A stretch of 64,000 nt of DNA from an uncultured virus (IMG/VR IMGVR_UViG_3300034021_001069) (IMGVR_UViG_3300034021_001069); one strand, 5' to 3'; positions 11,949-17,568 are shown, numbered from the stretch's first letter. Program-made: numbers and translations. The notes: generated from the letters alone by a model not told the origin.

Positions 11949-12650
11949 TTACTTTTTTGCTTCAAAAATTCTACCCCAGCCATCATTACTCTTTGGGCAC
12001 CATCTACGGGCAAGATCTCCACGCTTATATACAGCACCCTTTCCATTGGTCACAGCACCCGTATAACCGTCGTTGAGGCTACCATATGGATCATTAACAA
12101 CATAATCTCCTGAAGGAGTCTTACCAATAACTACAACCATGTGACCACCAGTAGGAGCAGATAAAGAGCCCCTATGGAGAATACCAATAACAACAGGTCT
12201 CCCAGCAGCAAGCTCACGATCAAGGTCAGCGAAAGAAAGACCATAGCTAAAATGTGACTTAATACCATAAGATGCCAACACACGGGTTTGAACCAAGTGA
12301 TCAGTTGTGTCTCCCACTGAGAAAACTTTTTGAACATAAGCATCATCGCCTTTTGTCCCCTTTAACGTGCCTGGTTTAAAATACTCAAGACACATAGCAC
12401 AACTAGAACTGTTACAAGTACGGTCAGCATCTCTATAATTATCTGTTTGTGGAAAAAATGGAACATCGAGAATTGATGATTTTGGTTTTTCCACTTTTGC
12501 TCTAAATGTTTTTACCCATCCAGAATTATCATCAATTTCTTCTGGTGCTTTTTTTGAAAGCACTTCTTCAAGTTGCTCTACTGCAGCAACATGCTTAGGG
12601 TTATTCTCGTCAAAATGCTTAAAGAAATTATGCAGATCTACTCTTGCCAT
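11949..12650 (-). CDS. C39-like cysteine peptidase (endolysin N-terminal part)
   Basis: QTDN...CNSSSCAM, GGHMVVVIG, VNDPYG (Cys-His-Asp triad). Confidence 0.85.
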   Translation of the reverse strand: MARVDLHNFFKHFDENNPKHVAAVEQLEEVLSKKAPEEIDDNSGWVKTFRAKVEKPKSSILDVPFFPQTDNYRDADRTCNSSSCAMCLEYFKPGTLKGTKGDDAYVQKVFSVGDTTDHLVQTRVLASYGIKSHFSYGLSFADLDRELAAGRPVVIGILHRGSLSAPTGGHMVVVIGKTPSGDYVVNDPYGSLNDGYTGAVTNGKGAVYKRGDLARRWCPKSNDGWGRIFEAKK

Positions 12651-12709
12651 TGTAATTTTCAAATCTGCCTTTATTTATTAAAAAAGGAGCCGTATAGCTC
12701 CTCCATCAA

Positions 12710-12796
12710 TTAGAATGTTTCTGAAAGCTGATTTACTGCATGAAACATCAAAACTAAAAAAGCAATTGATGTAATAGTAAATAAGAGTTCAACCAT
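12710..12796 (-). CDS. 28-aa single-TM peptide coupled to hli
   Basis: MVELLFTITSIAFLVLMFHAVNQLSETF, TGATG overlap with hli. Confidence 0.55.
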   Translation of the reverse strand: MVELLFTITSIAFLVLMFHAVNQLSETF

Positions 12797-13014
12797 CACC
12801 ATACACCAGGAATGATCTGACCAGTCAGTGCATAAGCACCAATGGCAGCAACAAATCCAAGCATAGCCAGGCGACCATTCAGGCGCTCAGCTTTTTCATT
12901 ATGGGTTTCGTATACACCGTTATCCATTTGTTCTTGTACCTCCGAATCAATATACATAGTGGGTTCTTTGGCAAACATATTCTGTTGACCAAATTCATTA
13001 GTAGTTATAGTCAT
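12796..13014 (-). CDS. hli: high-light inducible protein
   Basis: AERLNGRLAMLGF...TGQIIPG. Confidence 0.95.
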   Translation of the reverse strand: MTITTNEFGQQNMFAKEPTMYIDSEVQEQMDNGVYETHNEKAERLNGRLAMLGFVAAIGAYALTGQIIPGVW

Positions 13015-13049
13015 TATCGTTCAAGTAAACATTAAGTAAGTTGGTAAGA

Positions 13050-13298
13050 TTAATCTTCGTCGTCGTAATGCCTTTCACGATAACACGGAACTCCTTCTGG
13101 ATCTAGCCAACGTGCGTAGTCTATGTCTTCCATTGCAATAGTGCATTGCATACCATTATCAAAAAGATAAATATCGTTCCAACGCTTGGTGTAATAATTT
13201 TGCTTTTGCAGCCTAAAATCAGGCATACCATTTAATTCAATAATACCAGCATCAACAAATCGATACCCTTCTCGCTCCAAAATGACTTTTGGTTTCAT
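13050..13298 (-). CDS. hypothetical early protein
   Basis: ORF behind TTGACA-17-TATACT (13322-13350). Confidence 0.75.
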   Translation of the reverse strand: MKPKVILEREGYRFVDAGIIELNGMPDFRLQKQNYYTKRWNDIYLFDNGMQCTIAMEDIDYARWLDPEGVPCYRERHYDDED

Positions 13299-13350
13299 GG
13301 TGAAATTTCGACTACCTGAGTAGTATAGGGCAATGCGCCAGCCGTGTCAA

Positions 13351-13424
13351 CACCCTCTGCAGGATTCGAACCTGCGACACATCGGTTCGTAGCCGATTGC
13401 TCTGGTCCACTGAGCTAAGAGGGT
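13351..13424 (-). tRNA. tRNA-Arg(ACG)
   Basis: ATCGG-CTACGAA-CCGAT. Confidence 0.92.
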
Positions 13425-13427
13425 AGG

Positions 13428-13499
13428 CGGAGGGTGAGGGATTCGAACCCCCATCGCAAGGTTTTGGAGACCTGCATCTTACCATTAGACCAACCCAAC
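13428..13499 (-). tRNA. tRNA-Trp(CCA), two acceptor-stem mismatches
   Basis: CAGGT-CTCCAAA-ACCTT. Confidence 0.8.
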
Positions 13500-13500
13500 A

Positions 13501-13577
13501 TGGTATCCGTGAGAGGATTTGAACCTCCAACACCCACCCTCTCAAGGTGGAGCCTCTTCCAATTGGGCTACACGGAT
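13501..13577 (-). tRNA. tRNA-Leu(GAG), short variable loop, CCA encoded
   Basis: CCACC-TTGAGAG-GGTGG. Confidence 0.85.
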
Positions 13578-13581
13578 ATAG

Positions 13582-13653
13582 TTCCAGAACTAGGATTCGA
13601 ACCTAGATAAACTCCTTCAAAGGGAGGTGTCCTGCCAGTTAGACGATTCTGGA
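13582..13653 (-). tRNA. tRNA-Gln(UUG)
   Basis: CTCC-CTTTGAA-GGAG. Confidence 0.9.
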
Positions 13654-13658
13654 TTAGG

Positions 13659-13734
13659 AGTTCAGGGTGGGATTTGAACCCACGGTGAAAGAAGTTTTGC
13701 AGACTTCCGCATTCGACCACTCTGCCACCTGAAC
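13659..13734 (-). tRNA. tRNA-Cys(GCA)
   Basis: GAAGT-CTGCAAA-ACTTC, U73. Confidence 0.92.
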
Positions 13735-13767
13735 ATTTGAACTATCTGGAATTTCCAGATAGTTGAG

Positions 13768-13839
13768 AGCCCAATGTCAGACTTGAACTGACGACCTATT
13801 GTTTACTAGACAATTGCTCTACCACTGAGCTAATCGGGC
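13768..13839 (-). tRNA. tRNA-Thr(AGU)
   Basis: ATTGT-CTAGTAA-ACAAT, G1-C72/C2-G71. Confidence 0.88.
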
Positions 13840-13841
13840 GG

Positions 13842-13913
13842 GGTGACGTATGGGAATCGAACCCATCTACCCAGATTCACAATCTGGTTCCTTAGCCGCT
13901 AGGATAACGTCAC
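13842..13913 (-). tRNA. tRNA-His(GUG)
   Basis: CCAGA-TTGTGAA-TCTGG, C73. Confidence 0.9.
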
Positions 13914-13914
13914 A

Positions 13915-13986
13915 AGGCAGTGGGTAGAATTGAACTACCGACATAGAGGGTATGAATCTCTTGTTCTACCACTGAACTACACTGCC
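13915..13986 (-). tRNA. tRNA-Met(CAU) (elongator Met or Ile2)
   Basis: AGAG-ATTCATACC-CTCT. Confidence 0.85.
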
Positions 13987-13989
13987 AAA

Positions 13990-14070
13990 TGGACGCTGAC
14001 CTGCTGGTTACTCTTTCTGAAGAGGGAGGCGTCAGTCTTTTATATCCTAGCAAGCACCTTGCTGGAGTCC
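13990..14070 (-). ncRNA. tRNA-sized structured element of unknown function
   Basis: GGAC/GTCC closing stem, AGCAAG/CTTGCT, CTGAC/GTCAG, CTCTT/AAGAG. Confidence 0.45.
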
Positions 14071-14072
14071 CA

Positions 14073-14157
14073 CGGAGAATAGAGGATTCGAACCTCTGGT
14101 GGTTTTACCCACACAAACTTTCCAAGTTTGCACCATAAACCTCTCGGACAATTCTCC
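14073..14157 (-). tRNA. tRNA-Ser(GGA)
   Basis: CAAAC-TTGGAAA-GTTTG, long variable arm. Confidence 0.92.
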
Positions 14158-14161
14158 AAGG

Positions 14162-14244
14162 CGGAAGATGTTGGATTCGAACCAACGGAGGTTTTATCCT
14201 CACGGTTTAGCAAACCGCTGCATTAACCACTCTGCCAATCTTCC
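14162..14244 (-). tRNA. tRNA-Ser(GCU)
   Basis: GCGGT-TTGCTAA-ACCGT, long variable arm. Confidence 0.92.
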
Positions 14245-14248
14245 AAAG

Positions 14249-14320
14249 TGGAACCGACAAGATTTGAACTTGTGACCGCTCGGTTATCAGCCGAGTGCTC
14301 TACCACTGAGCTACGGTTCC
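14249..14320 (-). tRNA. tRNA-Ile(GAU)
   Basis: CTCGG-CTGATAA-CCGAG. Confidence 0.95.
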
Positions 14321-14324
14321 AAAG

Positions 14325-14398
14325 AGGGAACAATCGGATTTGAACCGATAACACCATGATCTTCAATCATGTGCTCTACCAATTGGAGCTATGTTCCC
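14325..14398 (-). tRNA. tRNA-Phe(GAA)
   Basis: CATGA-TTGAAGA-TCATG. Confidence 0.92.
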
Positions 14399-14401
14399 GA
14401 G

Positions 14402-14476
14402 TCTGGATGGTAGGATTTGAACCTACGACCTGAGCTTTCCAAAAGCCCCGCGCTGACCAAGCTGCGCTACACCCAG
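14402..14476 (-). tRNA. tRNA-Pro(UGG), second copy with A37
   Basis: GGGCT-TTTGGAA-AGCTC, C1-G72. Confidence 0.88.
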
Positions 14477-14477
14477 T

Positions 14478-14552
14478 TGGTATTCCTAACGGGATTCGAA
14501 CCCGTGCTACCACCTTGAAAGGGTGGTGACCTAACCGCTAGTCGATAGGAAC
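14478..14552 (-). tRNA. tRNA-Glu(UUC), CCA encoded
   Basis: CCACC-CTTTCAA-GGTGG. Confidence 0.93.
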
Positions 14553-14577
14553 AAAATGGGTTGCTGCAGCAACCCAA

Positions 14578-14649
14578 CGACCCTAACGAGATTCGAACTC
14601 GTGATACATCTTGGACAGAGATGCGTGATAGCCACTTCACTATAGGGTC
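14578..14649 (-). tRNA. tRNA-Asp(GUC)
   Basis: CATCT-CTGTCCA-AGATG. Confidence 0.92.
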
Positions 14650-14653
14650 AAGG

Positions 14654-14742
14654 TGGGAGAAGAGGGAATTGCACCCCCAACGGTTCTTATGTAACAGTTT
14701 TACAGACTGCCGCCACACATATCTAATAGTAGCCTTTCTCCC
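14654..14742 (-). tRNA. tRNA-Tyr(GUA), atypical D-arm and T-loop
   Basis: GCAGT-CTGTAAA-ACTGT, T-loop TGCAATT. Confidence 0.8.
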
Positions 14743-14780
14743 GAACAGTTTATGTTTAACGACCGAACTGTGGCGGTCGA

Positions 14781-14852
14781 TGGGTCTGGTGGGACTCGAA
14801 CCCACAACTTCCAGGTTAAAAGCCCGTTACTCTACCATTGAGTTACAGACCC
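14781..14852 (-). tRNA. tRNA-Lys(UUU)
   Basis: CGGG-CTTTTAA-CCTG. Confidence 0.92.
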
Positions 14853-14866
14853 ATTAAAGGTTTAAA

Positions 14867-14900
14867 TTTTCGAGGTGCGCTGGGAGGGGGCTGCCCCTCC
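14867..14900 (-). promoter_or_regulatory. boxB hairpin plus boxA-like antitermination signal
   Basis: GGAGGGG-CAGC-CCCCTCC followed by GCACCTCGAAAA. Confidence 0.65.
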
Positions 14901-14908
14901 AACAAATT

Positions 14909-14948
14909 AAGAATAAAATAGGGGGGTGGTTTTGTCAACCGCCCCCCT
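14909..14948 (-). terminator. attenuator-type terminator with an embedded sigma70 promoter
   Basis: GGGGGGCGGTT/AACCACCCCCC plus TATTTT. TTGACA(14933-38)-17-TATTCT(14910-15). Confidence 0.7.
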
Positions 14949-14978
14949 GATAAATCTTGCTTATGTGTCAGATGTCTT

Positions 14979-15080
14979 TCATCGTTTACACTTATCAGCA
15001 AGCAGGAGGAATTGAGCGGGATGCCAATAGCGGCAATCGCTAATCTTAATTTCCATAAATTGCTTACTGAAAGTAGACAT
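14979..15080 (-). CDS. putative leader peptide of the tRNA operon (33 aa)
   Basis: MSTFSKQFMEIKISDCRYWHPAQFLLLADKCKR, GGTGA RBS, TATAAATA late promoter at 15101-15108. Confidence 0.65.
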   Translation of the reverse strand: MSTFSKQFMEIKISDCRYWHPAQFLLLADKCKR

Positions 15081-15131
15081 GTTGTTCACCAATGTAATTT
15101 TATTTATACAAGATTTACCAAAAAATGGTAA

Positions 15132-15203
15132 TGGGCGAAGAGGGGATCGAACCCCCGACCGACTGGGTGTAAACCAGTAGCTCTACCGCTGAGCTATTCG
15201 CCC
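15132..15203 (-). tRNA. tRNA-Val(UAC)
   Basis: ACTGG-TTTACAC-CCAGT. Confidence 0.95.
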
Positions 15204-15206
15204 TTT

Positions 15207-15278
15207 CCCTCTGGCTGGGAATCGAACCCAGTTTCCATGTGTGTTATCCACCCGTCATTACCAATAGACTAACAGAGG
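15207..15278 (-). ncRNA. tRNA-like RNA with non-canonical anticodon arm
   Basis: CCTCTG/CAGAGG acceptor, D-loop TGGTA, CTGGG-TTCGATT-CCCAG T-arm, anticodon arm disrupted. Confidence 0.65.
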
Positions 15279-15352
15279 TGGGAAGAAGTTTCCCCCTTCC
15301 CTAGCACCATCACGGCATTTCGGTTTATCTTTCCGACGCAAGTGATGGTGGA

Positions 15353-15425
15353 CTCCCCCACCTGGACTCGAACCAGGAACCCCAGAGTTAACAGCTCCGT
15401 GCTCTGCCAATTGAGCTATAAGGGA
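15353..15425 (-). tRNA. tRNA-Asn(GUU)
   Basis: CGGAG-CTGTTAA-CTCTG. Confidence 0.93.
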
Positions 15426-15457
15426 ATGAAGTGGTGCTTTAAAGCACCACAAGTATA

Positions 15458-16303
15458 TCAGAACTTAAATCCGAGACCCGTAGTAAACACGGGGGAATAG
15501 GTTCCATTAGTTGCACCATAGCTGTTGCCAGCATTGGTGGTAGGGAACTTAAGATCAGCAAAACCAACCAGAGAGTTAGTCAGACGACCTTCAATACCCA
15601 GAGCAAGCACAGCTTGACCACGATTACCAACTGCTGATTGATAGTTAGCATCGGTGTTGTTTACGAAAGGAATCTGGTAACCAGCTCCAGCATAAACATT
15701 AGCACGGCTTACGCCAGACTTAGCACGGGAAACGCTCCAATCGTAAGAAACCAGAGCACCGCCGCCAGCACCGATTTGACCAGCAGGAGAGCCTACGAAG
15801 TTAACGTAGGGGCGAACCGAAACAGCGTTTTGATTGGTAAAAGTCTTCACAGCATAACGTGCTTGAATGGTTCCACCAGACACAGTGCGTTGAGCACTAT
15901 AGCTGTTACCAGCAACACCTTGCTGATTGAGAAGAACACCAGCACCAAGATAGTTACCAACACCTTGTGCTTTTTGAGCTGCAGCAACTTCAAGAGCAGT
16001 TACACGAGCATTGGTTGCACGAAGGGCAGCAGCAATCTTAGCATCTTCTGCATTCTGAAATGCAGTAATGTGGTCAAGGCAATGATTTACGAGAGCAGCA
16101 AGCTCTGCTCGGGTTGCAGCTTGACCAGGCTTGAACGTGCCGTTGGGATAACCAACGAGACAGCCATAACGAGTATTAAGATTAACAATTGCTTGATATG
16201 CCCAGTCAGTAGGCTGAACATCAGAGGGGACTGCAGCCATAGCAGGAGCAACTACAGAAGTAGCAGCAATAGCACTGGTAGCAATAAACGAACGAATCAT
16301 CAT
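15458..16303 (-). CDS. SLH-domain outer-membrane beta-barrel protein (cyanobacterial porin-like N-terminus)
   Basis: Signal peptide, SDVQPTDWAYQA...YGCLVGYPNGTF...TRAELAA SLH motif, coiled coil, beta-strands ending GLGFKF. Confidence 0.85.
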   Translation of the reverse strand: MMIRSFIATSAIAATSVVAPAMAAVPSDVQPTDWAYQAIVNLNTRYGCLVGYPNGTFKPGQAATRAELAALVNHCLDHITAFQNAEDAKIAAALRATNARVTALEVAAAQKAQGVGNYLGAGVLLNQQGVAGNSYSAQRTVSGGTIQARYAVKTFTNQNAVSVRPYVNFVGSPAGQIGAGGGALVSYDWSVSRAKSGVSRANVYAGAGYQIPFVNNTDANYQSAVGNRGQAVLALGIEGRLTNSLVGFADLKFPTTNAGNSYGATNGTYSPVFTTGLGFKF

Positions 16304-16356
16304 AGTTTTGTATTAATAACTACAAGGGTTATTTAGTTCAAAGCAAGTGCTTTGAA

Positions 16357-16428
16357 AGCGAGGTAGGGGATTCGAACCCCTGACGTTCTGCTTGGAAGGC
16401 AGACATTCTACCACTGAATTAACCTCGC
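16357..16428 (-). tRNA. tRNA-Gly(UCC)
   Basis: TCTGC-CTTCCAA-GCAGA. Confidence 0.95.
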
Positions 16429-16450
16429 ATATGGATAATATATTATCCAA

Positions 16451-16524
16451 CGCCTTTGGCAGGACTCGAACCTGCGACCAACCGCTTAGAAGGCGGATGC
16501 TCTATTCCGCTGAGCTACAAAGGC
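16451..16524 (-). tRNA. tRNA-Arg(UCU)
   Basis: CCGC-CTTCTAA-GCGG. Promoter TTGACA-17-TAGACT at 16534-16562. Confidence 0.95.
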
Positions 16525-16565
16525 AAGAATTAGAGTCTAGACCATAAAGCTAGACTTGTCAAGGG

Positions 16566-16733
16566 CTAGGCAGCCAACTGCTGAAGTTCCTTGATGCGAT
16601 CTGCTACAGCTATAGCATCTGCATAGTTTCCATCAGAAACAAGAGAATGCAATTGATCGATCATGATCTCTACAGACTCTTCCAGAAAAGAACGGTCATC
16701 ATTGATTTCAGTAAAGAAGCTCTCAAAGTTCAT
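16566..16733 (-). CDS. small acidic early protein (55 aa)
   Basis: Manual translation MNFESFFTEINDDRSFLEES...KELQQLAA. TTGACA-17-TATACT at 16759-16787. Confidence 0.7.
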   Translation of the reverse strand: MNFESFFTEINDDRSFLEESVEIMIDQLHSLVSDGNYADAIAVADRIKELQQLAA

Positions 16734-16783
16734 TGCTGTGTCTCTCGATTACCTTAGTAGTATATAGCAGTTGGAGCGGGGTG

Positions 16784-17125
16784 TCAAGCGATCGATTGAT
16801 TAAAATTCTTAATGAACCACTCAGCATCGATAACTACTAATGGTTTTTTATTGTTTTTCTTTATAAAAAGAATAGGAGTATGATTACCTGAATTTGCACA
16901 TGCTTGAGCATATGCTTCCCAGATATTCAACTTTTCCTGATTTTTACATTCAATGCTAAATGGAAATTTATTCCTGGCATCTCTAGCCATAATTAGATCT
17001 TCTCCACCAGCGCCCATAGATCTAGATTCGATATCTTCTGGGTGGATACTTCTGTGCTCAATAAGCATATCCCTAACCCATTGTTGGAATCTTCTACCTT
17101 TGGCTTTTGCTGAACTAGGATTCAT
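16784..17125 (-). CDS. PD-(D/E)XK Holliday-junction-resolvase-like nuclease
   Basis: SAKAKGRRFQ, GEDL, SIECKNQE. Confidence 0.8.
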   Translation of the reverse strand: MNPSSAKAKGRRFQQWVRDMLIEHRSIHPEDIESRSMGAGGEDLIMARDARNKFPFSIECKNQEKLNIWEAYAQACANSGNHTPILFIKKNNKKPLVVIDAEWFIKNFNQSIA

Positions 17126-17250
17126 CAATCATCATCGTCATCATATCTTATATATTGTGGTTTTTCATCTACTAATTCTAGCTCCTTTTCAAGCTGATCT
17201 AAGAGTAGTTTCATATTTCTTATAATCAACTTCAATCTATCATTTTTCAT
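17125..17250 (-). CDS. small hypothetical protein (41 aa)
   Basis: Manual translation MKNDRLKLIIRNMKLLLDQLEKELE...DDDDD, GGAG RBS. Confidence 0.65.
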   Translation of the reverse strand: MKNDRLKLIIRNMKLLLDQLEKELELVDEKPQYIRYDDDDD

Positions 17251-17293
17251 ACGATTCTCCAAATAAAAATGGAGGGGATATCCCCTCCTGTAT

Positions 17294-17440
17294 TCACTTC
17301 ATTGCCATGGCAAGTTGAGCTTGCTTTAGTCTATTCTCCTTTTCAATTTGCTGCCTGATAATCGGCAACCAATTAGAAACAATTTCAGCTTTACGAATTT
17401 CAGTGTCGTAGCTAGCACCACGATAAGTTGCTTGTGACAT
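17294..17440 (-). CDS. DUF4278-like small protein (48 aa)
   Basis: Manual translation MSQATYRGASYDTEIRK...AQLAMAMK, YRGxxY motif, AAGGAG RBS. Confidence 0.8.
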   Translation of the reverse strand: MSQATYRGASYDTEIRKAEIVSNWLPIIRQQIEKENRLKQAQLAMAMK

Positions 17441-17471
17441 TAGGTTTCTCCTTAGTTTTTTAGGTTAAAGA

Positions 17472-17568
17472 GCGTTCCTTCAGTCGGCTTTTGCGTTCGC
17501 TATTCTCAAATAGCGAATGAACGATCCGTTCCGAGTCGGCTTACTTCCGTCCCATAGGGATGAACGAT
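17472..17568 (-). ncRNA. tandem glutamine (glnA-type) riboswitch
   Basis: Two units ATCGTTCAT-[hairpin]-ACG..AAGCCGACT..GGAACG. Confidence 0.85.

What the first reader, a model, noticed from the sequence alone, without database searches (positions are those of the whole stretch)
14909..15108. Candidate codon-sampling leader-peptide attenuator controlling a 17-tRNA phage operon
SEEN: A late promoter (TATAAATA, 15101-08) and GGTGA RBS precede a 33-codon ORF absent from the ORF track (15080-14979, MSTFSKQFMEIKISDCRYWHPAQFLLLADKCKR). It is followed by a GC-rich terminator (14947-14921 plus TATTTT) and then 17 tRNAs. The peptide contains all 16 amino acids served by those tRNAs, plus Ala. It lacks exactly Gly, Val and Asn, whose tRNAs lie upstream of the leader. 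The match extends to codons: TCT/Ser-GGA, AGT+AGC/Ser-GCU, ACT/Thr-AGU, CGC+CGA/Arg-ACG (no AGR, and Arg-UCU is upstream), CTC+CTT/Leu-GAG, ATT/Ile-GAU, CAA, GAA, GAT, TGC, TAT, TGG, CAT, TTY, AAR, ATG. Pro is CCC against a UGG anticodon, a weaker match. Codons 13-25 (ISDCRYWHPAQFL) are 13 different residues in a row. The ORF 3' third can pair with downstream RNA: CCTCCTG 15009-03 with CAGGGGG 14949-43, CTTGCT 15002-14997 with AGCAAG 14961-56, and GTGT with ACAC. This would sequester the terminator 5' arm. KNOWN: this is the geometry of trp/his-type attenuators, which normally sense one or a few amino acids. INFERENCE: stalling at any early codon, for example after host tRNA cleavage by anticodon nucleases or starvation, frees the antiterminator and induces the whole phage tRNA set. 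That would make it a pan-tRNA shortage sensor. Caveats: the Leu codons lie within the antiterminator arm, and a sigma70 promoter inside the terminator could bypass it early in infection.
Basis: partly seen in the sequence, partly recalled or inferred. Interest (0 to 1): 0.93.

Follow-up and report, generated by a model that had tools for sequence, protein, structure and literature searches.

The report
Translation-sensing switch before phage tRNA genes
A short translated leader with mutually exclusive RNA hairpins, conserved in a group of viruses of cyanobacteria, probably lets late transcription run on into the virus's own tRNA genes only when ribosomes are slowed; no such control of tRNA genes turned up in the papers searched.

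Summary
A TATAAATA box, a Shine-Dalgarno-like site, a 33-codon ORF (15080-14979, minus strand), a GC hairpin with a U-run and the proposed antiterminator pairing are all at the stated coordinates.

The element is not a one-off. I found 33 distinct versions in four subfamilies, always directly upstream of a tRNA array. Isolates S-PM2 and S-CREM1 carry it; the rest are uncultured T4-like cyanophage contigs.

ORF codons 5-7 (region 1) pair with the antiterminator 5' arm (region 2). This gives a full trp-type 1:2 / 2:3 / 3:4 layout, with the stop codon at the tip of the 2:3 hairpin. Regions 1, 2 and 3 change together between subfamilies.

The frame, start codon and whole-codon indels are kept, but the peptide is not conserved as a protein. 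Its conserved codons are the base-paired ones.

I conclude it is a ribosome-dependent transcription attenuator that gates late or read-through transcription into the tRNA genes (about 0.75).

The "pan-tRNA codon-sampling" idea is only weakly supported. It is nominally significant in this window, but arrays differ widely while leaders barely change. A sigma70-like promoter downstream can bypass the switch. Nothing has been tested experimentally.

The parts
15101..15108 (-). T4-type late-promoter box TATAAATA
   Evidence: An exact TATAAATA lies 19-22 nt upstream of the leader ATG in 31 of 33 distinct loci; the other 2 have TATATATA.
15086..15090 (-). Shine-Dalgarno-like GGTGA
   Evidence: An SD-like word lies 5-16 nt upstream of the ATG in 31 of 33 loci.
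14979..15080 (-). Leader ORF, 33 codons plus TGA
   Evidence: The frame is open in 33 of 33 homologues at 28-34 codons, and all ORF indels are whole codons.
15061..15068 (-). Region 1 (AGUAAGCA, codons 5-7), pairs with region 2; new here
   Evidence: 99% of cells paired in 14 type I sequences. swap test: cognate -11.5 against cross-subfamily -6.4 kcal/mol.
15015..15041 (-). Internal hairpin over codons S-D-C-R-Y-W-H-P-A, inside the 1:2 loop
   Evidence: RNAalifold consensus with compensatory changes: GC to UA at columns 41/71 in 12 sequences, CG to AU at columns 40/72 in 10.
14997..15009 (-). Region 2 (CCUCCUGCUUGCU, codons 24-28), which pairs with region 1 or region 3
14965..14991 (-). Small hairpin enclosing the stop codon; tip of the 2:3 antiterminator
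   Evidence: Types II and IV have a hairpin of different sequence at the same place.
14943..14961 (-). Region 3 (AGCAAG, a 6-nt bulge, CAGGGGG); overlaps the 5' arm of the terminator
   Evidence: 95.6% of cells paired; cognate -21.0 against cross-subfamily -15.6 kcal/mol.
14911..14947 (-). Intrinsic terminator: GC stem 14947-14921 plus U-rich tract 14920-14911 (region 3:4)
   Evidence: -21.9 kcal/mol; consensus helix with compensatory pairs at columns 146/166, 149/164, 151/162, 152/161 and 153/160.
14910..14938 (-). Sigma70-like promoter TTGACA-17-TATTCT, with its -35 box in the terminator loop
   Evidence: 10 of 12 matches. A comparable promoter lies between the terminator and the first tRNA in 31 of 33 loci (no shuffled control).
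14883..14900 (-). Second GC hairpin, about 3 nt after the predicted sigma70 start
   Evidence: Present at this position in the other loci with different stem sequences. Function not tested.
14862..14878 (-). Conserved box GCACCTCGAAAATTTAA just upstream of tRNA-Lys
   Evidence: Of 34 IMG/VR loci with this box followed by tRNA-Lys, 30 had a leader hit, 1 had a divergent leader and 3 were cut too short to tell.
13350..14853 (-). The regulated tRNA array: Lys, (Tyr), Asp, Glu, Pro, Phe, Ile, Ser, Ser, Met, His, Thr, Cys, Gln, Leu, Trp, Arg

Best explanation
This is a ribosome-dependent (leader-peptide) transcription attenuator of the trp type, placed between a phage late promoter and the main tRNA array.

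Proposed mechanism. RNA polymerase starts at TATAAATA, or reads in from the tRNA genes upstream, and transcribes a 28-34 codon leader ORF.
- If a ribosome follows closely and reaches region 2 and the stop codon, it sits inside the would-be 2:3 hairpin. Region 3 is then free to pair with region 4, the terminator forms, and transcription ends before tRNA-Lys.
- If the ribosome is held up anywhere upstream of region 2 (roughly codons 1-20), region 1 is covered or sterically blocked. Region 2 pairs with region 3 as soon as region 3 emerges, the terminator cannot form, and the polymerase runs into the tRNA genes.
- With no ribosome at all, 1:2 forms first and termination follows.

The net effect is that slow translation late in infection raises tRNA synthesis. 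I read it as a sensor of general decoding speed on the leader rather than of one amino acid.

Shown here: sequence conservation, mutually exclusive pairings, covariation between subfamilies, and signs that the frame is kept for translation. Inferred: that termination, readthrough and ribosome dependence actually occur.
For: (1) The element is conserved. 33 distinct leaders were found in four subfamilies. Of 34 loci with the conserved box followed by tRNA-Lys, 30 had a leader hit, 1 a divergent leader and 3 were cut too short.

(2) Signals for transcription and translation are kept. TATAAATA is exact in 31 of 33, lying 19-22 nt before the ATG. An SD-like word is present in 31 of 33. The start is ATG and the frame open in 33 of 33. 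All ORF indels are whole codons.

(3) The peptide is not conserved as a protein. There are 43 and 38 extra amino-acid variants against 14 and 15 synonymous ones (types I and II). Variable sites are spread evenly over codon positions (16/14/17 and 14/16/19). The invariant codons are the base-paired ones. This is what a leader peptide should look like.

(4) The terminator and the internal hairpin are recovered by RNAalifold, and 10 of 16 pairs carry compensatory changes.

(5) The full-length minimum-energy fold is 1:2, plus the internal hairpin, the stop hairpin and the terminator.

(6) In transcripts cut before region 4, at least 5 nucleotides of the terminator 5' arm pair with the ORF 3' part in 28 of 33 loci unmasked and 31 of 33 with region 1 masked.

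(7) Duplex energies are 1:2 -12 to -25, 2:3 -22 to -33 and 3:4 -19 to -30 kcal/mol.

(8) Regions 1, 2 and 3 covary between subfamilies. In swap tests the cognate partner beats the mean of foreign partners in 31 of 33 loci (1:2) and 33 of 33 (2:3). It beats the best foreign partner in 29 and 26 of 33.

(9) The stop codon lies at the tip of the best ORF/downstream duplex in all 33 loci.

(10) No protein gene follows the leader, only tRNAs, so transcription is the only output available.
Against: - There is no experimental evidence for termination, readthrough or translation.
- There is no run of regulatory codons, which is the hallmark of amino-acid attenuators.
- Within the 14 type I sequences the 1:2 and 2:3 helices are almost invariant. 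No pair shows a change on both sides in 2:3, and none in helix 1. Covariation for these two helices therefore rests on about four lineages. For subfamily III the cognate 1:2 energy (-6.6) is worse than with the subfamily IV partner (-11.8).
- L018, L020 and L021 have an uncompensated G/G mismatch in 2:3. In L014 an A in region 3 is compensated in region 4 but not in region 2.
- Equilibrium folds of the full leader with a ribosome mask keep the terminator in most loci. In truncated transcripts 2:3 forms even without a ribosome in 28 of 33. The switch therefore depends on a kinetic argument.
- Frame +1 is also free of stops in 23 of 33 loci, so an open frame alone is weak evidence.
- A sigma70-like promoter lies after or within the terminator in 31 of 33 loci and can drive the array independently.
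- I know of no leader-peptide attenuator described in cyanobacteria (recalled, not searched).
Confidence: 0.75

Rival explanations
1. One reading: the attenuator is tuned codon by codon to the tRNAs it controls. It would act as a self-referential, pan-tRNA shortage sensor, for example against host anticodon nucleases. This is a special case of the attenuator, not an alternative to it.
For: In the window, 29 of 33 codons are readable by the array (P=0.005) and 16 of 17 tRNAs are sampled (P=0.0009). Across 24 loci with complete arrays, 257 of 270 array amino acids occur in the cognate leader. Peptide/array agreement is 313 of 480 cells against 289 +/- 6.6 (P=0.00035). Within subfamilies the null is 296 +/- 5.5 (P about 0.001). 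Examples: the L009-L011 leaders lack Tyr and have tRNA-Tyr upstream of the leader. L010 lost both His and tRNA-His. Gly occurs in the peptide in 8 of the 24 loci, and all 5 arrays that hold a Gly tRNA are among those 8.
Against: - Leaders barely change while arrays range from 4 to 20 tRNAs. L015, L017, L078 and L071 are clear mismatches.
- The readable-codon fraction is not enriched in types II and IV (P 0.13-0.88).
- There are 154 peptide/amino-acid cells with no tRNA in the array. Ala occurs in 20 loci, Cys in 19, Asn in 17 and Leu in 16.
- In phylogenetically independent pairs, about 37 of 46 show no peptide change. The rest split 7.3 to 2.0, P=0.18, on a poorly resolved tree with 3 of 21 branches supported.
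- C, W and H lie in a covarying RNA stem, and the hairpin-loop codons vary freely.
- CTG in the window is not read by Leu-GAG. The CTCCTGCTTGCT string is kept even where no Leu tRNA follows.
- The leader's codon usage is ordinary for the phage: AT3 is 0.63 against 0.76, and synonymous usage sits at the 38th percentile.
Confidence: 0.2
2. It is an ordinary small late gene with its own terminator, followed by an independent sigma70-type promoter for the tRNAs. The alternative pairings would be incidental, or would serve only mRNA stability.
For: S-CREM1's annotators called the ORF a hypothetical protein. A sigma70-like promoter follows in 31 of 33 loci. A terminator is expected at the end of any transcription unit.
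Against: The peptide is poorly conserved except where the RNA is paired. Regions 1, 2 and 3 covary three ways, and the stop codon sits at the tip of the 2:3 hairpin in 33 of 33 loci. The element is linked to the tRNA array in all loci with enough flank to judge.
Confidence: 0.12
3. The terminated leader transcript of about 170-190 nt, or its peptide, is itself the functional product. It would be a late small RNA or micropeptide acting in trans, as reported for the Sinorhizobium trp attenuator RNA and peptide. This could hold with or without cis control of the tRNAs.
For: The RNA is highly structured and conserved. Precedents appear in the listings (rnTrpL and peTrpL papers; only the starts of the abstracts were seen).
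Against: No target was sought or found. The peptide is weakly conserved. There is no Rfam family match. The design is fully explained by cis attenuation.
Confidence: 0.08

Closest known systems
Leader-peptide transcription attenuators of amino-acid operons (trp, his, leu, thr, pheA of E. coli and Salmonella)
   Same: A short translated leader and four RNA regions with exclusive 1:2, 2:3 and 3:4 pairings. 3:4 is an intrinsic terminator. The stop codon is placed so that a ribosome finishing the ORF prevents 2:3. The mechanism of the known systems is recalled.
   Different: There is no run of codons for one amino acid. The regulated genes are tRNAs, not biosynthetic enzymes. The element lies in a phage behind a T4-type late promoter. 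The hosts of the two cultured carriers, S-PM2 and S-CREM1, are Synechococcus. A second promoter lies downstream of, or inside, the terminator.
pheST (pheM leader) attenuator of E. coli
   Same: A component of the translation apparatus is placed under leader-peptide attenuation, so that poor decoding raises its own supply (recalled).
   Different: pheM is Phe-rich and controls a tRNA synthetase. Here the leader is of mixed composition and controls tRNA genes directly.
Ribosome-stalling attenuators without amino-acid specificity (e.g. B. subtilis bmrCD leader, PMC4191407; mef/mel, PMC4335068; only search listings and abstract starts seen)
   Same: Any slowing of the ribosome on a leader ORF favours an antiterminator and induces the downstream genes. 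This is the closest match to the logic I propose.
   Different: Those respond to antibiotics and control resistance pumps or ABCF proteins in Gram-positive bacteria. This one would respond to the state of translation in an infected cyanobacterium and controls tRNAs.
T-box riboswitches
   Same: A terminator/antiterminator choice linked to tRNA status (recalled).
   Different: T-boxes bind uncharged tRNA directly, are not translated, and control synthetase or amino-acid genes. No T-box or other Rfam family apart from the tRNA genes matched 14855-15110, and no match at all lay inside it.

Membership tests
Ribosome-dependent (leader-peptide) transcription attenuator | Short ORF with start codon and ribosome-binding site in the 5' leader, conserved as a reading frame | tested here: met
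   ATG and an open frame in 33 of 33 loci, an SD-like word in 31 of 33, and whole-codon indels only. Caveat: frame +1 is also stop-free in 23 of 33.
Ribosome-dependent (leader-peptide) transcription attenuator | Intrinsic terminator (GC hairpin plus U-run) between the leader ORF and the regulated genes | tested here: met
   Hairpin energy is -19 to -30 kcal/mol in 33 loci. The consensus helix carries compensatory pairs. A U-rich tract follows in the alignment. The simple scan did not list it.
Ribosome-dependent (leader-peptide) transcription attenuator | Antiterminator (2:3) that shares bases with the terminator 5' arm | tested here: met
   In type I, 95.6% of cells are paired, against 31-65% when the partners are slid. 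2:3 forms in 28-31 of 33 truncated transcripts. Cognate pairing beats foreign in 33 of 33 loci. Within type I there are no double changes.
Ribosome-dependent (leader-peptide) transcription attenuator | Anti-antiterminator (1:2) overlapping the translated region | tested here: met
   It is present in the minimum-energy folds. In type I, 99% of cells are paired. Cognate energy is -11.5 against -6.4 kcal/mol; cognate beats the mean foreign energy in 31 of 33 loci. It is weak in subfamily III.
Ribosome-dependent (leader-peptide) transcription attenuator | Tandem or enriched regulatory codons for the sensed amino acid | tested here: not met
   No codon runs occur. The window leader has 17 different residues in 33 codons, which is ordinary (P=0.18).
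Ribosome-dependent (leader-peptide) transcription attenuator | Readthrough depends on translation and stalling of the leader | not testable with these tools
   This needs reporter, Term-seq or Ribo-seq experiments.
T-box / other curated RNA families (Rfam 15) | Match to a curated covariance model | tested here: not met
   cmscan of 12500-17500 at E up to 1 found tRNA genes and weak chance hits. No match lay inside 14855-15110; two tRNA matches touch its ends.
Functional small protein gene | Purifying selection on the amino-acid sequence (excess of synonymous change, third-position variation) | tested here: not met
   There are 43 and 38 amino-acid variants against 14 and 15 synonymous ones, and variable sites are spread evenly over codon positions.

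The most novel reading that the evidence does not exclude
The phage measures the supply of its own tRNAs. The leader would be decoded largely by the tRNAs encoded just downstream: Lys, Gln, Ile and Glu codons over region 1, and Ser, Asp, Cys, Arg, Tyr, Trp and His codons just before region 2. A shortage of any of them, whether from the load of AT-rich late genes or from host anticodon nucleases, would stall the ribosome and open late transcription of the whole array. That would be a self-referential homeostat for a viral tRNA pool and a counter to tRNA-targeting defence.
Probability: 0.2. Interest if true: 0.9.

Novelty: new variant of a known kind. Interest (0 to 1): 0.74.

Why it matters
Why phages carry tRNA genes is much discussed: codon compensation, replacing degraded host tRNAs, evading anticodon nucleases. 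How their expression is controlled is hardly known.

A conserved translation-coupled attenuator in front of the main tRNA array would be a feedback loop linking phage tRNA output to the actual state of decoding in the infected cell. It would also extend leader-peptide attenuation to tRNA genes, to a virus, and to a system whose cultured members (S-PM2, S-CREM1) infect cyanobacteria.

The idea is directly testable in S-PM2 and S-CREM1, both of which are in culture. Five full-text searches and passages of three papers turned up no description of it. In S-PM2 the ORF is not annotated; an opposite-strand ORF is annotated there instead. In S-CREM1 it is listed only as a hypothetical protein.

Tried and rejected
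- RNA evidence. The look-up of sequencing runs gave only runs holding 5-9% of the sampled words. Laying four of them covered little but tRNA-like pieces of other organisms. There was one 151-nt contig identical to 14734-14884 and one fragment of a type II leader. All were assembled contigs, so nothing can be said about 3' ends or expression.
- Rfam had no family for the leader.
- blastn and tblastn of GenBank phages found only S-PM2 and S-CREM1.
- The window's own assembly is not held. The nearest record, G001, is the same 19-kb contig as L003.
- Earlier findings of the scan: none.
- Equilibrium folding with ribosome masks did not by itself switch the terminator off in most loci. I therefore rely on truncated-transcript folds and a kinetic argument.
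- In one search, two loci (L002, L086) scored 0 only because my routine picked a 4-nt arm. Their 2:3 duplexes are -28.3 and -24.6 kcal/mol.
- In the dinucleotide-shuffle controls, cognate 1:2 and 2:3 energies were clearly better than shuffled (z about -2.5 to -6.6) in types II-IV. In type I they were often not (z about -0.3 to -4.0), because any C-rich string pairs with the G-run.
- The count of structure pairs within type I showed conservation but almost no covariation for 1:2 and 2:3.
- I did not build a covariance model, so there is no structure-guided alignment across all four subfamilies.
- The codon-bias test showed no enrichment of AT-ending or rare codons in the leader.
- The independent-pairs test was underpowered and not significant.
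- The S-PM2 P-stress paper (PMC10976474, section 18 read) reports small ORFs in a different tRNA operon at about 155 kb, not this one.
- Supplements of the S-CREM1 and S-PM2 papers were not opened. They could hold expression values for this region.

Full report
**What is there**

On the minus strand the window reads, in order:
- tRNA-Val (ends 15132)
- TATAAATA (15108-15101)
- GGTGA (15090-15086)
- a 33-codon ORF (15080-14979)
- a small hairpin around the stop codon
- a GC hairpin (14947-14921) followed by a U-rich tract
- a second GC hairpin (14900-14883)
- a conserved box (14878-14862)
- tRNA-Lys (14853) and the rest of the array down to 13350.

ARAGORN at default settings finds 16 tRNAs after the leader. 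The 17th, Tyr, shows up only as a weak Rfam hit and at a relaxed ARAGORN threshold, and its D arm is unusual. All 8 TATAAATA copies in the window lie on the strand that carries all 58 ORFs I called as genes.

Two corrections. The middle Leu codon is CTG, which Leu-GAG does not read. By strict wobble, 29 of 33 codons are readable by the array, not all of them.

**It is a conserved element**

blastn against GenBank phages found the same arrangement in S-PM2 and in S-CREM1. In S-PM2 the ORF is not annotated; an opposite-strand ORF is annotated there instead. In S-CREM1 it is annotated as a 32-residue hypothetical protein.

Scans of IMG/VR and of metagenome contigs with the peptide alignment, a scan of IMG/VR with the box upstream of tRNA-Lys, and an nhmmer profile then gave 33 distinct leaders. 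They fall into four subfamilies:
- I: 17 sequences, including the window and S-PM2
- II: 13 sequences
- III: S-CREM1 and L086
- IV: L059

Of 34 IMG/VR loci with the box followed by tRNA-Lys, 30 had a leader hit, one had a divergent leader, and three were cut too short to tell.

An exact TATAAATA lies 19-22 nt before the ATG in 31 of 33 loci. An SD-like word is present in 31 of 33. ORF length is 28-34 codons.

**Translated, but not a protein gene**

The frame is open in 33 of 33 loci and every indel inside the ORF is a whole codon. However, frame +1 is also free of stops in 23 of 33.

Variable sites are spread evenly over codon positions: 16/14/17 in type I and 14/16/19 in type II. Amino-acid variants outnumber synonymous ones, 43 against 14 and 38 against 15. 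The invariant codons coincide with base-paired RNA. This is the signature of a leader peptide whose act of translation matters, not its product.

**RNA architecture**

Codons 5-7 (region 1, 15068-15061) pair with the 5' arm of the proposed antiterminator (region 2, 15009-14997). That helix encloses a conserved hairpin over the S-D-C-R-Y-W-H codons.

Region 2 can instead pair with region 3 (14961-14943), which overlaps the 5' arm of the terminator. The small stop-codon hairpin forms the tip of this long 2:3 structure. In all 33 loci the stop codon lies at the tip of the best ORF/downstream duplex.

Duplex energies are -12 to -25 (1:2), -22 to -33 (2:3) and -19 to -30 kcal/mol (3:4). In transcripts cut before region 4, the terminator 5' arm pairs with the ORF 3' part in 28 of 33 loci unmasked and in 31 of 33 with region 1 masked. 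The two misses are a technical failure of my arm detection.

**Covariation**

RNAalifold on all 33 sequences recovers the internal hairpin and the terminator. Ten of 16 pairs carry compensatory changes.

Within 14 type I sequences, the 1:2 and 2:3 helices are 99% and 95.6% paired, against 31-65% when the partners are slid. They are almost invariant, though, so they say little about covariation.

Between subfamilies the three regions change together:

| Subfamily | Region 1 | Region 2 | Region 3 |
|---|---|---|---|
| I | AGCAAGCA | UGCUUGCU | AGCAAG |
| II | CAAACAG | CUGUUUG | GCAAA...CAG |
| III | CAAAG | CUUUG | GCAAA |
| IV | CAACC..AAGAG | CUCUUGGUUG | GCAAC.AAGAG |

In swap tests the cognate 1:2 energy averages -11.5 against -6.4 kcal/mol for foreign partners. 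It beats the mean foreign energy in 31 of 33 loci and the best foreign energy in 29 of 33. For 2:3 the figures are -21.0 against -15.6, with 33 of 33 and 26 of 33. At the level of subfamily means, the cognate partner is best in 7 of 8 comparisons.

Weak points:
- Subfamily III has a poor 1:2 helix.
- L018, L020 and L021 have a G/G mismatch in 2:3.
- L014 has an uncompensated mismatch in 2:3.

**Mechanism (inferred)**

The layout is that of the trp attenuator. A ribosome that keeps pace with the polymerase reaches region 2 and the stop codon and sits inside the would-be 2:3 hairpin. The terminator then forms.

A ribosome delayed anywhere before region 2 covers region 1, or sits in the 1:2 loop. 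Region 2 pairs with region 3 and the polymerase reads into the tRNAs. Without any ribosome, 1:2 forms first and termination follows.

Equilibrium folds do not decide this. As in the classical cases, the argument is kinetic.

**The bypass promoter**

A sigma70-like promoter lies between the terminator and the first tRNA in 31 of 33 loci. In most type I members, including the window, its -35 box sits in the terminator loop (no shuffled control). The switch therefore gates only transcription from the late promoter or from upstream tRNA genes, presumably late in infection.

**The codon-sampling idea**

In the window the match is nominally unusual:
- 29 of 33 readable codons: P=0.005
- 16 of 17 tRNAs sampled: P=0.0009
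- all 16 amino acids covered and no G, V or N: about 5e-6

Across 24 loci with complete arrays, 257 of 270 array amino acids occur in the cognate leader. Agreement exceeds a label permutation: 313 against 289 +/- 6.6, P=0.00035. Within subfamilies P is about 0.001.

Several results count against it:
- Leaders hardly change while arrays range from 4 to 20 tRNAs.
- L015, L017, L078 and L071 are plain mismatches.
- Types II and IV show no enrichment of readable codons (P 0.13-0.88).
- 154 peptide/amino-acid cells have no tRNA in the array.
- Asn, Val and Gly all occur in other leaders, and Asn does so in leaders whose Asn tRNA lies upstream.
- C, W and H are encoded by the stem of the covarying hairpin, whose loop codons vary freely.
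- The leader's codon usage is ordinary.
- With relatedness allowed for, the peptide does not change in about 37 of 46 independent pairs. The rest split about 7 to 2, P=0.18, on a poorly resolved tree.

I therefore rate the pan-tRNA reading at about 0.2. The general reading, a sensor of decoding speed, is the better supported one.

**Known or new**

Rfam has no family for the leader. Five full-text searches found no description of an attenuator or leader peptide before phage or cellular tRNA genes. Nor did passages of the S-CREM1 genome paper, of an S-PM2 transcriptome paper, or of a survey of viral structured RNAs. These were listings, passages and one section only; supplements were not opened.

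It works like a trp-type attenuator and meets four of the five sequence-level criteria. It fails the criterion of regulatory codon runs. Its logic is closest to stalling-sensing attenuators such as the bmrCD leader.

I classify it as a new variant of a known kind. It is well supported by comparative sequence evidence and untested experimentally.

Noticed in passing
window 15458-16303 (-): A 281-residue ORF sits between tRNA genes. It has an N-terminal signal-like stretch and an SLH (S-layer homology) domain (Pfam E=7.7e-9). Its C-terminal part is rich in G, N, A and S and has no family match. It may be a phage-borne outer-membrane or porin-like protein.
   Followed up: partly
window 14655-14742 (-): The tRNA-Tyr(GTA) of the array has an intact acceptor stem but an oversized, odd D-arm region. 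Default ARAGORN misses it, and Rfam gives only a weak tRNA-Sec-like hit. It could be a decaying or unusual tRNA.
   Followed up: partly
window 14862-14900 (-), and the same place in L001-L143: A GC hairpin lies right after the predicted sigma70 start, followed by a conserved box (GCACCTYGAMAATYTAA) about 8-10 nt before tRNA-Lys. The stem sequences differ between loci while the hairpin is kept. It may be a 5' stabiliser or a processing signal for the tRNA precursor.
   Followed up: partly
L001, L005, L013 versus type II loci (tree): S-PM2-type loci have a type I leader ORF but a type II-like terminator and a roughly 60-nt extra spacer module. On flanking DNA, S-PM2 (L001) and L005 group with type II; L013 was not in the tree. 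The element looks mosaic, as if recombined within the leader.
   Followed up: no
L006 versus L007 (near-identical contigs): L006 lacks tRNA-Lys and tRNA-Tyr because of what looks like a deletion fusing the 5' part of tRNA-Lys to the 3' part of tRNA-Tyr. This could be real recombination between tRNA genes or an assembly artefact.
   Followed up: no
window 11949-12662, 12796-13014, 16784-17128 (-): The neighbouring ORFs are a Peptidase_C39-like protein (E=6.9e-14), a 72-residue high-light-inducible-like protein (weak Chloroa_b-bind hit, below the Pfam cut-off) and a PDDEXK_15 phage endonuclease (E=1e-6).
   Followed up: partly
LN828717 (S-PM2d) 108647-109003, seen as L001 2362-2718: The annotated CDS S-PM2d160 runs on the opposite strand across tRNA-Arg and the leader. 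It is probably a mis-annotation, while the conserved 34-codon leader ORF on the tRNA strand is not annotated.
   Followed up: partly
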